A DNA stretch of 64,000 nucleotides from Escherichia coli (lineage in GTDB: Bacteria; Pseudomonadota; Gammaproteobacteria; Enterobacterales; Enterobacteriaceae), in the NCBI RefSeq assembly GCF_013315695.1, contig NZ_CP054353.1, one strand, 5' to 3'. The position numbers are program-made. Positions 6,001 to 9,000 of the stretch are shown piece by piece (positions within the stretch are counted from its first letter, which is position 1; every line of letters starts with the position of its first letter).

Positions 6001-9000
6001 GCCGGAAGATGCCAAAGCGTGGGTAGAAGAACACGTTGGCTTTGTTGATTCCGCCGTTGACCGCATCGTGCCGCCTTCAGCTTCTGCAACCAACGATCCG
6101 CTGGAAGTGACGGTAGAAACATTCAGCGAATGGATTGTTGATAAAACCCAGTTCAAAGGCGCGCTGCCGAACATCCCAGGCATGGAGTTAACCGACAACC
6201 TGATGGCATTTGTCGAACGTAAACTCTTCACCCTGAATACGGGTCATGCTATAACCGCGTACCTCGGAAAACTGGCGGGTCATCAGACCATTCGTGATGC
6301 GATTCTCGACGAGAAAATCCGCGCGGTGGTAAAAGGTGCGATGGAAGAAAGCGGTGCGGTACTGATCAAGCGCTACGGCTTTGACGCAGACAAGCATGCG
6401 GCATACATCCAGAAAATCCTCGGTCGTTTCGAGAACCCGTATCTGAAAGATGATGTAGAGCGCGTAGGCCGTCAGCCGCTGCGTAAACTGAGCGCTGGTG
6501 ACCGTCTGATTAAGCCACTGCTCGGTACACTGGAATATGGTCTGCCACATAAAAACCTGATTGAAGGTATTGCCGCTGCAATGCACTTCCGCAGTGAAGA
6601 TGATCCGCAGGCTCAGGAACTGGCAGCACTGATCGCTGACAAAGGTCCGCAGGCGGCGCTGGCACAGATTTCCGGTCTTGATGCCAACAGCGAGGTTGTA
6701 TCCGAGGCGGTAACCGCTTATAAAGCAATGCAATAATGGTGGACCAGGCGCAGGACACCCTGCGCCCGAATAACAGATTGTCAGATATGCAGGCAACAAT
6801 GGAACAAACCCAGGCCTTTGAAAACCGTGTGCTTGAGCGTCTGAATGCTGGCAAAACCGTGCGAAGCTTTCTGATCACCGCCGTCGAGCTTTTGACCGAG
6901 GCGGTAAATCTTCTGGTGCTTCAGGTATTCCGCAAAGACGATTACGCGGTGAAGTATGCTGTAGAACCGTTACTCGACGGCGATGGTCCGCTGGGCGATC
7001 TTTCTGTGCGTTTAAAACTCATTTACGGGTTGGGCGTCATTAACCGCCAGGAATACGAAGATGCGGAACTGCTGATGGCATTGCGTGAAGAGCTAAATCA
7101 CGACGGCAACGAGTACGCGTTTACCGACGACGAAATCCTTGGACCCTTTGGTGAACTGCATTGCGTGGCGGCGTTACCACCGCCGCCACAGTTTGAACCT
7201 GCAGACTCCAGTTTGTATGCAATGCAAATTCAGCGTTACCAACAGGCTGTGCGATCAACAATGGTCCTTTCACTGACAGAGCTGATTTCCAAAATCAGCT
7301 TAAAAAAAGCCTTTCAAAAGTAAGTACTTTCGCTTACTTCTCCTCTACCTGTTTCGGCCGATAAAGCCGACGATAATATTCCAGACGTTGTAGATATAAC
7401 GGCACGCTTTCATCAGGTATTCCGGACGGAATCGCGTTACGGGGAGGTAGTTTTTTCAGATACTCCCGGAACGCCTGGCTCGATGCCATGAAATCTACGG
7501 CTTTATCGATAAGAAGCGGAACGTTTTCACCTAATTTGCCCATGATGATATCTCCGTATTACCCCGCGCCGGGAATGCGCGGCCGCCAATTTTAGTTTAG
7601 ATCCCGGTATAAATGACATTAAGGAAAACGTGCTCAATCCTCAATAATCATCCGTTTCTATTAACTATCTTTTTTCTTTAAATTTCTTAATTAATCAATA
7701 AATTGCGTAGTTTTTAAGCATGTTAATGTTTACGTTATAGAACTATTGCAATGTCATCAGTTGTGAACAAAGCACCTGGTCGCGCATACTAGGGGCTATA
7801 AATTTATCTTTATCAGAAGCCATCACATGAAAGAAGTCGAAAAAAACGAAATCAAACGTCTCAGCGATCGTCTGGACGCCATCCGCCACCAGCAGGCCGA
7901 TCTGTCGCTGGTTGAAGCCGCAGACAAATATGCCGAACTGGAAAAAGAGAAAGCCACTCTGGAAGCAGAAATTGCTCGCCTGCGCGAAGTTCACAGCCAG
8001 AAACTCAGTAAGGAAGCACAGAAGCTGATGAAGATGCCGTTCCAGCGCGCGATTACTAAAAAAGAGCAAGCTGATATGGGTAAACTGAAGAAGAGCGTTC
8101 GCGGACTGGTCGTTGTGCACCCAATGACCGCGCTGGGCCGTGAAATGGGCCTGCAAGAGATGACAGGGTTCTCTAAGACCGCGTTTTAAGTTCCTTTCTC
8201 GTCGCTGTAATTACAGCCACTCACGATTTACTCGCTCCTGCTGGCACATGCAGGAGCCTGTTTCAGAGATCGAATATTTGTAACGTTCTTAACATTATAT
8301 ATTCAACTCCACCTACACTTCTGAGCGATCTGAGCAGGCTAAATTCTGAAAAGCAGGTACAAATTGAATAATGATGTATCAATATCAACAATGAATTACC
8401 GCATAGCAATGCTTGAAACATAATTAATTATTTAAATTTTTCTATCAGAATCGCAAACTTCGCAATAAAACATCACTCAACTGAATATTTACCTTTCCCT
8501 GCCCTGGGCCTTTATCCGGTGAAACATTTGACATTGATTGACACCGATCATTAAAATCCGCGCGATTAATATTATTGGCTACAAACCGAAATTGTTTGAC
8601 ACTTAATAACATATTCGCACAACCGATTAATACAAAAATTCTCTAACAAATTTATTTGTCGGATATGCTCCACTCTAATCATTCATAAAAAAAATGATTG
8701 TGCCGTAATTATCAACTGTATCGGGATTATGAAAAGGAATTCATCCTATGAACCTAAAGAAAACACTGTTAAGCGTGTTAATAATAGTGCCTCTCTGCTT
8801 ATTGGCAGGGTGTGACGGTGATGCTGCCAACTTACTGATTTAGTGTATGATGGTGTTTTTGAGGTGCTCCAGTGGCTTCTGTTTCTATCAGCTGTCCCTC
8901 CTGTTCAGCTACTGACGGGGTGGTGCGTAACGGCAAAAGCACCGCCGGACATCAGCGCTATCTCTGCTCTCACTGCCGTAAAACATGGCAACTGCAGTTC

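What the first reader, a model, noticed from the sequence alone, without database searches (positions are those of the whole stretch)
8190..8747. Long AT-rich non-coding leader upstream of the lipoprotein/adhesin operon
Seen in sequence: about 560 bp with no ORF >60 aa and conspicuously high A+T content compared with the flanking genes. Inference: long AT-rich leaders upstream of surface adhesins are commonly bound by H-NS-type nucleoid proteins, so this may be a transcriptionally silenced promoter region; it could also hide a small RNA or small protein. I cannot distinguish these from sequence alone.
Basis: inference. Interest (0 to 1): 0.3.

Follow-up and report, generated by a model that had tools for sequence, protein, structure and literature searches.

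The report
Silenced promoter region of adhesin operon
This AT-rich 558-bp gap is the ordinary regulatory region of a known E. coli surface-adhesin operon (the UpaG/EhaG/SadA type, already reported to be silenced by H-NS), and in this strain an IS1 insertion has cut the operon off from it.

Summary
Window 8190-8747 is a 558-bp gap between yibL and a SadB-like lipoprotein gene. It has no ORF over 55 aa and GC 0.355, against 0.50 for the window.

It is not one long leader. It contains:
- a yibL 3' hairpin (8235-8258);
- an AT-rich upstream region;
- a near-consensus sigma-70 promoter (TTGACA 8528-8533, 18 nt, TAAAAT 8552-8557);
- a predicted unstructured 5' UTR of about 183 nt.

The promoter is one of only two sequence blocks kept across Escherichia, Salmonella and Pseudocitrobacter.

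H-NS silencing is supported by published data on the 94%-identical CFT073 locus:
- the adjacent gene c4423 is H-NS/StpA-bound in ChIP-seq;
- H-NS is reported to repress UpaG;
- overproducing the PapB-family regulator TosR raises c4423 about 34-fold.

Sequence tests for an H-NS motif and for curvature were negative. I found no small RNA, small protein, structured leader or invertible switch.

Two extras:
- In this window IS1 (8817-9584), with a 219-bp deletion, destroys the lipoprotein gene and separates the promoter from the adhesin gene.
- An unexplained conserved block, ATTCTGAAAA (8343-8352), sits about 180 bp upstream of the -35 in every full-length ortholog.

The finding is ordinary and essentially already known.

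The parts
7827..8189 (+). yibL (YibL family ribosome-associated protein), the last core gene before the accessory segment
   Evidence: NCBIfam NF008244, E=8e-57. PGAP annotation in identical genomes. Homology to K-12 ends at 8190.
8235..8258 (+). yibL 3' stem-loop GCTCCTGC-N8-GCAGGAGC, a probable weak terminator or 3'-end structure
   Evidence: The region 8186-8275 folds at -27.8 kcal/mol, z=-3.38. The stem is kept in the Escherichia alleles, with one compensatory change (C:G to T:A) in P. vendiensis. The simple terminator scan did not call it because the T-run is weak.
8343..8352 (.). Distal conserved block ATTCTGAAAA (core TCYGAAAA), function unknown
   Evidence: It is the second most conserved 12-mer of the cross-genus alignment. 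It lies 171-183 bp upstream of the -35 in every full-length ortholog, including the deeply diverged EhaG-type (O26) and Salmonella alleles.
8420..8448 (.). Most AT-rich stretch, ATAATTAATTATTTAAATTTTTCTATCAG; it corresponds to the published MEME-predicted TosR (PapB-family) motif upstream of c4423
   Evidence: PMC5956150 Table S2 gives the CFT073 sequence ATAATTAATTATTTAAATTTTCAATCAG, 299 bp upstream of the ATG. It contains the only match in the gap to the H-NS consensus with up to 2 mismatches (8435-8444). This is a prediction only; binding was not tested.
8528..8557 (+). Sigma-70 promoter: -35 TTGACA (8528-8533), 18-nt spacer, -10 TAAAAT (8552-8557)
   Evidence: It matches 11 of 12 consensus positions and is the only plus-strand promoter-like site in the gap. 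TTTGACA and ATTAnnAT are the only invariant runs across 11 orthologs from three genera. The orthologous site is the best plus-strand hit in Salmonella, O26 and P. corydidari.
8565..8747 (+). Predicted 5' UTR (~183 nt), starting at an invariant A eight nt after the -10; includes the inverted repeat AATCATT (8677-8683) / AATGATT (8693-8699) and the Shine-Dalgarno AGGA (8735-8738)
   Evidence: A at 8565 is invariant in alignment A3. The fold is not better than shuffles (z=+0.45) and the alignment gives no net covariation. The SD block is the fourth most conserved 12-mer. The start site is inferred, not measured.
8748..8816 (+). 5' stub (codons 1-23: signal peptide and lipobox) of the SadB-like DUF3251 lipoprotein gene
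   Evidence: The intact ortholog matches SadB, PDB 4C47, at E=1.6e-69.
8817..9584 (+). IS1 (768 bp, insA/insB in the same direction as the operon), with loss of sadB codons 24-96 (219 bp)
   Evidence: Inverted-repeat ends and flank alignment to the intact MS 21-1 locus. PGAP calls it an IS1A transposase. The junction is present in only 2 of 5426 complete E. coli genomes.
9585..9981 (+). 3' remnant of the SadB-like gene (codons ~97-227), a pseudogene
   Evidence: tblastn gives residues 98-227 at 100%. PGAP notes 'incomplete; missing N-terminus'.
10025..15025 (+). YadA-like trimeric autotransporter adhesin gene (1666 aa), positional ortholog of UpaG/EhaG/SadA
   Evidence: NCBIfam hits to Ata, Vomp, EmaA and YadA autotransporters. 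PGAP annotates upaG and ehaG at the same position in CFT073 and O26.

Best explanation
The interval is the cis-regulatory region of the sadBA-type operon, which encodes a SadB-like inner-membrane lipoprotein and a trimeric autotransporter adhesin. This operon is the positional ortholog of c4423-upaG in UPEC, ehaG in EHEC and sadBA in Salmonella.

Reading left to right, the interval contains:
- the yibL 3' hairpin;
- about 265 bp of very AT-rich upstream DNA;
- a near-consensus sigma-70 promoter (TTGACA-18-TAAAAT);
- an AT-rich, unstructured 5' UTR of about 183 nt, ending in a normal Shine-Dalgarno sequence.

The core promoter is intrinsically strong. It is kept off under laboratory conditions because H-NS/StpA filaments coat the AT-rich tract, which runs from the gap into the 41%-GC lipoprotein gene. 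AT-binding antagonists such as PapB-family regulators can lift this silencing.

What is shown and what is inferred:
- Shown here: the anatomy, the composition, and the conservation of the promoter.
- Taken from the literature on the 94%-identical CFT073 locus: H-NS/StpA binding and derepression.
- Inferred: the transcription start at 8565, and the claim that silencing acts at this promoter in this strain.

In this particular window IS1, with a 219-bp deletion, has destroyed the lipoprotein gene. The promoter now reads into IS1, and adhesin display is probably lost or reduced whatever H-NS does.
For: Synteny and identity:
- The gene order is mtlADR-yibT-yibL, the gap, a DUF3251/SadB-like gene, a YadA-like adhesin gene, then lldPRD.
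- The lipoprotein matches SadB structure 4C47 at E=1.6e-69.
- Grin 2014 describes this operon at this position between mtl and lld, and its absence from K-12.
- Homology to K-12 stops at 8190 and resumes at 15047.

Promoter:
- It matches 11 of 12 consensus positions.
- It is the only invariant sequence across 11 orthologs whose gaps are otherwise 24-94% identical to the window.
- It is the top plus-strand hit in three divergent orthologs.
- An AT-rich gap of 489-560 bp (GC 0.30-0.36) is present in all orthologs.

Silencing:
- c4423 is in the H-NS-bound gene list for CFT073. H-NS occupancy is 0.51 in wild type, 0.33 in the hns mutant and 0.07 in the hns stpA double mutant; StpA occupancy is 0.48.
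- UpaG is cited as H-NS-repressed.
- c4423 rises by log2FC 5.1 on TosR overproduction, and a predicted TosR motif lies inside this gap.
- Salmonella sadB (STM3690) falls 4.2-fold in a fur mutant in which hns is up 3.1-fold.
- SadA is not expressed in culture.

Composition: A-tracts are 23 against a mean of 10.5 per 558 bp, and TpA steps are 8.1 against 4.8 per 100 bp.

IS1.
Against: - No expression or binding data exist for this strain or for the gap itself. The ChIP table is per gene, and upaG itself is not in the H-NS-bound list.
- The H-NS high-affinity consensus TCGATAAATT has only one match with up to 2 mismatches in the gap, and it is not enriched in the window (73 found, 69 expected).
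- A wedge-model curvature profile, using parameters recalled from memory, shows nothing unusual (5.76 against 5.63 degrees per turn).
- The number of promoter-like hits in the gap is what AT-rich DNA gives by chance (6 against 4.5). The promoter call therefore rests on conservation, not on the scan.
- The primary paper for H-NS repression (Totsika 2012) could not be read here.
- The conserved distal block is not explained by this model.
Confidence: 0.8

Rival explanations
1. The gap hides an independent small RNA gene or a small protein gene.
For: The gap is long (558 bp), and small ORFs of 52, 55 and 36 aa exist on the minus strand. A 22-codon TTG ORF (8538-8606) is intact in six Escherichia alleles.
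Against: - There is no Rfam match at E<=1 in the window or in five orthologous loci.
- There is no intrinsic terminator inside the gap on either strand.
- The 52-, 55- and 36-aa ORFs are broken by stops or frameshifts even in close alleles.
- The 22-codon ORF starts inside the promoter spacer, upstream of the predicted start site. It has no Shine-Dalgarno sequence, and its conservation is explained by the promoter block.
- None of the listed RefSeq records annotates a feature there.
Confidence: 0.05
2. The 5' UTR is a structured cis-regulatory RNA (a riboswitch, an RNA thermometer or an attenuator) that controls the operon after transcription starts.
For: The predicted leader is long (~183 nt). 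A small hairpin can pair part of the SD region (8724-8746). The inverted repeat AATCATT/AATGATT is kept in E. coli and both Pseudocitrobacter species.
Against: - The fold is no more stable than shuffles (z=+0.45; 132 of 200 shuffles fold as well).
- RNAalifold gives -7.5 kcal/mol with an unfavourable covariation term (+0.82), and only 2 of 23 pairs have compensatory changes.
- The leader sequence is not alignable between allele families.
- There is no Rfam hit.
Confidence: 0.05
3. The region is a phase-variation switch, either an invertible promoter element like fimS or a Dam/GATC methylation switch like pap or agn43.
For: Adhesins are often phase-variable. A 31-nt imperfect inverted repeat (71% complementary) brackets 8264-8797. 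One GATC lies in the promoter spacer (8545-8548; read).
Against: - The repeat is weak, AT-rich, and has one arm inside the coding sequence.
- All 1,246-1,302 genomes with near-full-length matches align in one collinear piece, and none is inverted.
- There are three GATC sites in 558 bp, against about 1.8 expected from composition (my arithmetic).
- No recombinase gene is adjacent.
Confidence: 0.03
4. Control is chiefly by a specific, still unidentified transcription factor that binds the conserved distal block (8343-8352), with H-NS as a secondary effect. Alternatively the block marks a second, upstream promoter that would give a ~400-nt leader.
For: - TCYGAAAA is kept at -171 to -183 from the -35 in four deeply diverged allele families across three genera, in sequence that is otherwise unalignable.
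- Shuffled controls give about 2 in-register shared 7-mers per pair, scattered rather than recurring at one place.
- The natural inducing condition of sadBA is unknown.
Against: - No factor could be assigned. Comparisons by eye with sigma-E, sigma-32, RcsB, CpxR, Cra and marbox consensus sequences, recalled from memory, did not give a consistent fit.
- There is no conserved -35 upstream of the block.
- The position, about 215 bp upstream of the start site, is far for a classical activator.
- This reading does not exclude H-NS silencing.
Confidence: 0.3

Closest known systems
c4423-upaG regulatory region of uropathogenic E. coli CFT073 (Valle 2008; Totsika 2012; Hustmyer 2022)
   Same: It has the same position (yibL, gap, DUF3251 gene, adhesin gene, lldP) and the same 558-bp length. 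It is 94.3% identical and has the same promoter, distal block and SD. It is reported as H-NS-repressed, and c4423 is H-NS/StpA-bound.
   Different: In CFT073 the lipoprotein gene is intact. Here IS1 with a 219-bp deletion interrupts it. The adhesin passenger differs in repeat content (1666 aa here; upaG is 5337 bp in CFT073).
ehaG upstream region of EHEC/EPEC-type E. coli (e.g. O26:H11 11368)
   Same: It has the same synteny, an AT-rich gap of about 540 bp, the same TTGACA-18-TAGAAT promoter, and the distal ATTCTGAAAA block 181 bp upstream.
   Different: The rest of the gap is essentially unalignable. In the aligned 321-bp partial sequence L017, identity to the window is 24%. This is a separate allele family, carried by 2,267 of 5,426 genomes.
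sadBA operon of Salmonella enterica (Grin et al. 2014, PMC3953254)
   Same: The operon architecture and location are the same. The lipoprotein is homologous (66% identity; PDB 4C47, E=1.6e-69). The gap is 526 bp and AT-rich (GC 0.31), with the orthologous TTGACA-17-TAGCAT promoter and the distal block. The operon is silent in laboratory culture.
   Different: The gap is only 36% identical. The spacer is 17 nt rather than 18. The discriminator is not GC-rich. Published regulation in Salmonella points to Fur and Fnr effects.
Generic H-NS/StpA xenogeneic silencing of AT-rich adhesin promoters (pap, auf, tos, F9, upaC, upaH)
   Same: The region is AT-rich, lineage-variable DNA next to a surface adhesin. 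It is silent in culture and derepressed by a PapB-family regulator.
   Different: No high-affinity H-NS motif cluster or strong predicted curvature was found here. There is no dedicated local anti-silencer gene in the locus.

Membership tests
H-NS/StpA-silenced promoter region | AT content well above the genome average over several hundred bp | tested here: met
   GC is 0.355 (0.329 for the core) against 0.502 for the window. The tract continues into the 0.41-GC lipoprotein gene.
H-NS/StpA-silenced promoter region | Physical occupancy by H-NS (ChIP) | not testable with these tools
   The literature covers the ortholog only. CFT073 c4423 is listed as H-NS- and StpA-bound, with occupancy 0.51 falling to 0.07 in the hns stpA double mutant. 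The gap itself is not tabulated.
H-NS/StpA-silenced promoter region | Derepression when hns is deleted or antagonised | not testable with these tools
   Taken from the literature: UpaG is cited as H-NS-repressed, and c4423 rises by log2FC 5.1 with TosR overproduction. The primary paper is not held.
H-NS/StpA-silenced promoter region | High-affinity nucleation motif (TCGATAAATT-like); helpful but not obligatory | tested here: not met
   There is one match with up to 2 mismatches in the gap (8435-8444), and no enrichment in the window: 73 found against 69.3 expected.
H-NS/StpA-silenced promoter region | Intrinsic DNA curvature | tested here: inconclusive
   The wedge model gives a mean of 5.76 against 5.63 degrees per turn for the window, so 44% of windows are as curved. 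The parameters were recalled from memory. A-tracts are twice as dense as average, in the top 4.6%.
H-NS/StpA-silenced promoter region | Lineage-specific (accessory) DNA | tested here: met
   Segment 8191-15046 is absent from K-12 and replaced there by 95 bp. There are several deeply diverged alleles within E. coli.
Sigma-70 promoter | -35 and -10 hexamers with 16-18 nt spacing | tested here: met
   TTGACA-18-TAAAAT matches 11 of 12 positions. It is conserved in 11 orthologs and is the top hit in three others.
Sigma-70 promoter | Mapped transcription start site | not testable with these tools
   A start at 8565 is inferred from the invariant A. No start-site data could be found.
sadBA / upaG / ehaG operon | Location between the mtl and lld operons | tested here: met
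   Grin 2014.
sadBA / upaG / ehaG operon | SadB-family lipoprotein gene directly upstream of a YadA-like trimeric autotransporter gene | tested here: met
   PDB 4C47 at E=1.6e-69 for the intact ortholog. Autotransporter family hits for the 1666-aa protein. YadA head, stalk and anchor domains in orthologs.
sadBA / upaG / ehaG operon | Both genes intact and contiguous with the promoter | tested here: not met
   IS1 lies at 8817-9584 and codons 24-96 are lost. PGAP calls the remnant a pseudogene.
Known RNA families (Rfam 15) | Covariance-model match | tested here: not met
   There are no matches at E<=1 in window 7200-10200. In five orthologous loci there is only a chance hit outside the gap.
Invertible promoter switch (fimS-like) | Good inverted repeats flanking the promoter, and both orientations present in the population | tested here: not met
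   The best bracket is 71% complementary, with one arm in the coding sequence. All near-full-length matches in over 1,200 genomes are collinear.

The most novel reading that the evidence does not exclude
The ten-base block ATTCTGAAAA (8343-8352) is held about 180 bp upstream of the -35 in every allele family, from E. coli UpaG-type and EhaG-type to Salmonella and Pseudocitrobacter. It may be the docking site of an unidentified regulator, either an anti-silencer or a looping partner, that sets the still unknown natural inducing signal of the SadA/UpaG/EhaG adhesins. Alternatively it may mark a second, distal promoter.
Probability: 0.3. Interest if true: 0.4.

Novelty: already known. Interest (0 to 1): 0.15.

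Why it matters
The finding mostly tidies up. It shows that an eye-catching AT-rich gap is the expected regulatory region of a characterised adhesin operon, and that this operon is already documented as H-NS/StpA-bound and H-NS-repressed in a near-identical locus.

Three useful by-products:
- A promoter assignment backed by conservation, with a predicted start site, for an operon whose native expression conditions are still described as unknown.
- A small conserved distal element that could guide a search for its specific regulator.
- The observation that this strain has lost the SadB helper lipoprotein and its promoter linkage through IS1. It is therefore probably adhesin-defective, which matters for anyone scoring 'upaG/ehaG-positive' genomes as adhesin-proficient.

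Tried and rejected
Tests of alternative readings:
- Rfam at a permissive threshold, on the window and on five orthologous loci: nothing.
- Conservation of every ORF of at least 15 codons in the gap across 10 orthologs: none survives, except a 22-codon TTG ORF that lies inside the promoter.
- Folding of the predicted leader and an alignment fold: no signal.
- H-NS consensus scan: not enriched.
- Curvature model: unremarkable.
- Repeats and an invertible-switch reading: rejected.
- An ops/RfaH element in the leader: none. The only relevant ops in the window is upstream of waaQ.

The distal block:
- I compared it by eye with consensus sequences recalled from memory: the sigma-E -10 (TCTGA, with GGAACTT required 16 nt upstream), the sigma-32 -35, RcsB/RcsAB, CpxR, Cra, marbox, IHF, Lrp and FNR.
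- None fitted consistently across alleles, so I make no assignment.

Sources that could not be used:
- Totsika 2012, Valle 2008 and Kroger 2012 are not held.
- A search of the Hustmyer supplements for coordinates near the CFT073 gap found nothing.
- A literature search for Salmonella sadA and H-NS gave nothing useful.
Orthologs were therefore collected through the protein search and contig look-ups instead.
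Full report
**1. Observation**

The window is E. coli chromosome. The gene order is mtlA, mtlD, mtlR, yibT (minus strand), yibL (7827-8189), a gap, a lipoprotein gene starting at 8748, a 1666-aa YadA-like adhesin gene (10025-15025), then lldPRD and onwards.

- The gap 8190-8747 is 558 bp.
- Its longest ORF in any frame is 55 aa.
- RefSeq annotates nothing under it in any listed genome that carries it.
- GC is 0.355 overall and 0.329 for 8268-8747, against 0.502 for the window.
- Only the waa LPS-core cluster is more AT-rich.
- Among annotated intergenic gaps in the first 50 kb it is the longest, and the most AT-rich of those over 100 bp. The margin over the yibT|yibL gap (0.367) and the waaQ|waaA gap (0.381) is small.

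**2. What the locus is**

- The gap is 100% identical to E. coli MS 21-1. There it precedes an intact 227-aa DUF3251 protein and a YadA-like protein.
- In CFT073 the same 558-bp gap (94.3% identical) precedes C_RS20890 (old tag c4423) and upaG.
- In O26:H11 a diverged gap precedes a DUF3251 gene and ehaG.
- The intact lipoprotein matches the Salmonella SadB crystal structure 4C47 at E=1.6e-69.
- Grin et al. 2014 describe exactly this sadBA operon between mtl and lld, its loss from K-12, and that its native expression conditions are unknown.
- Homology to K-12 stops one base after the yibL stop codon (8190) and resumes at 15047. The whole finding therefore lies in accessory DNA, which K-12 replaces with a 95-bp REP-like filler.

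**3. A break in the operon in this window**

- The lipoprotein ORF runs for 23 codons (signal peptide and lipobox) and then meets IS1 at 8817-9584.
- The gene resumes at about codon 97, so 219 bp (codons 24-96) were lost as well.
- PGAP annotates an IS1A transposase and a DUF3251 pseudogene in the identical genome MSB1_4I.
- Only 2 of 5,426 complete genomes share this junction.
- The promoter region under study is therefore no longer directly joined to the adhesin gene. SadB is reported to be needed for proper SadA display.

**4. Anatomy of the gap from comparative data**

I collected orthologous loci from several E. coli alleles, Escherichia sp. E1V33, E. fergusonii, Salmonella enterica and two Pseudocitrobacter species. 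All have a gap of 489-560 bp with GC 0.30-0.36. Identity of these gaps to the window falls from 94% to about 24-37%.

Across the 11-sequence alignment, the only invariant runs are:
- TTTGACA (8527-8533);
- ATTAnnAT (8550-8557);
- an invariant A at 8565.

These form a TTGACA-18-TAAAAT promoter, matching 11 of 12 consensus positions. It is the only plus-strand promoter-like site in the gap. The orthologous site is the best plus-strand hit in Salmonella (TTGACA-17-TAGCAT), O26 (TTGACA-18-TAGAAT) and P. corydidari (TTGACA-18-TAACAT). Promoter-like hits as such are no more frequent than chance in this AT-rich DNA. The case therefore rests on positional conservation.

The four most conserved 12-mers are:
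1. the -35;
2. a distal block at 8341-8352;
3. the -10;
4. the Shine-Dalgarno region.

The first ~70 bp form a stable hairpin after yibL (z=-3.38). It carries one compensatory change in P. vendiensis. It is probably the yibL 3' end.

**5. Tests of the 'hidden gene or RNA' alternatives**

- There is no Rfam hit at E<=1.
- There is no intrinsic terminator inside the gap.
- All sizeable ORFs are broken in close alleles. The only ORF kept within Escherichia (22 codons, TTG start at 8538) begins inside the promoter spacer.
- The predicted 183-nt leader folds no better than shuffles (z=+0.45).
- The alignment fold shows no net covariation.
- There are no convincing inverted repeats for an invertible switch, and matches in over 1,200 genomes are collinear.

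**6. H-NS**

Sequence-only indicators are mixed.
- In favour: strong AT-richness, twice the usual A-tract density, and 1.7 times the usual TpA steps.
- Against: no enrichment of the H-NS nucleation consensus and no unusual predicted curvature. The curvature result comes from a crude model with parameters recalled from memory.

The decisive support is published work on the near-identical CFT073 locus.
- Hustmyer et al. 2022 list c4423 among H-NS-bound genes. H-NS occupancy is 0.51 in wild type, 0.52 in the stpA mutant, 0.33 in the hns mutant and 0.07 in the hns stpA double mutant. StpA occupancy is 0.48. upaG, yibL and the mtl genes are not in that list.
- PMC5012682 cites Totsika 2012 for H-NS repression of UpaG.
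- Overproducing TosR, a PapB-family protein predicted to bind AT-rich DNA and antagonise H-NS and Lrp, raises c4423 by log2FC 5.1.
- That paper's MEME-derived TosR motif maps to window 8420-8448, the most AT-rich stretch of the gap.
- In Salmonella, sadB (STM3690) drops 4.2-fold in an anaerobic fur mutant in which hns rises 3.1-fold.
- SadA is undetectable in culture.

A near-consensus promoter that stays silent fits repression better than a weak promoter.

**7. Mechanism proposed**

H-NS/StpA filaments cover the AT-rich tract, which runs from about 8263 through the 41%-GC lipoprotein gene. They occlude or trap RNA polymerase at the conserved promoter. AT-binding antagonists or unknown host signals relieve the silencing. 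Transcription then starts near 8565 and reads through sadB into the adhesin gene across a 43-bp spacer.

- Shown here: the anatomy, the composition and the conservation.
- From the literature on orthologs: binding and derepression.
- Inferred: the start site, and whether the same holds in this strain.

Here IS1 makes the question largely moot for the adhesin.

**8. Unexplained residue**

The block ATTCTGAAAA (core TCYGAAAA) sits 171-183 bp upstream of the -35 in all full-length orthologs, across allele families that are otherwise unalignable. I could not match it convincingly to any consensus I know. It is the one element that might repay experimental work.

**9. Verdict**

This is a real feature, correctly read by the first-stage reader in its main inference. 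It is ordinary and essentially already known.

Noticed in passing
window 8817-9584 (IS1), with flanks 8748-8816 and 9585-9981: IS1 is inserted in the SadB-like lipoprotein gene, with loss of 219 bp (codons 24-96). The same junction occurs in only 2 of 5,426 complete E. coli genomes (MSB1_4I and NZ_OZ547117.1). The adhesin gene downstream is intact but has lost its helper gene and its direct promoter linkage.
   Followed up: yes
window 8343-8352; also L019 1414-1423, L014 about 2095-2104: The conserved block ATTCTGAAAA (core TCYGAAAA) is held 171-183 bp upstream of the -35 in every full-length ortholog, across allele families that are otherwise unalignable. Its function is unknown.
   Followed up: partly
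window 8191-15046: The whole sadB-adhesin segment, including the gap under study, is absent from K-12 MG1655. K-12 has a 95-bp REP-like filler between yibL and the lldP promoter region.
   Followed up: yes
window 8190-8747 compared with L003, L008, L007, L019: The gap exists in several deeply diverged allele families within E. coli. The UpaG-like family is in 1,880 of 5,426 genomes and the EhaG-like family in 2,267 of 5,426. The SadB protein of strain 4/1-1 is mosaic: its N-terminal half is diverged and its C-terminal half is identical to the window type. This suggests recombination across the locus.
   Followed up: partly
window 11311-12378: A 255-bp unit is repeated 4.2 times at 98% identity inside the adhesin passenger domain. 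It contains nested 42-bp repeats. This probably drives length variation among UpaG/EhaG-type proteins (1666 aa here; the gene is 4704 bp in MS 21-1).
   Followed up: no
window 7544-7826 (yibT|yibL gap): This is a second AT-rich gap (GC 0.367). It carries a cluster of five matches with up to 2 mismatches to the H-NS consensus TCGATAAATT within 7675-7810. That is denser than anything in the gap under study.
   Followed up: no
window 8729-8731: An upstream ATG lies 19 nt before the lipoprotein start, out of frame. It opens an overlapping ORF of about 28 codons. It is conserved in the Escherichia alleles as part of the SD block but not in Salmonella. It is probably incidental.
   Followed up: partly
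window 33800-38800 and 42767-42774 (minus strand): The waa LPS-core cluster is the most AT-rich part of the window (GC down to 0.29). An ops element (GGCGGTAG on the minus strand) sits just upstream of waaQ, as expected for the RfaH-dependent operon.
   Followed up: no
L009, L010, L012: Contigs labelled as MAGs of Oscillospiraceae, Collinsella and Bacillota carry Escherichia-type sadB sequence at 69-97% protein identity; L009 and L010 also carry yibL, whereas L012 is a truncated contig with no yibL match. This is most likely contamination from metagenome binning.
   Followed up: no
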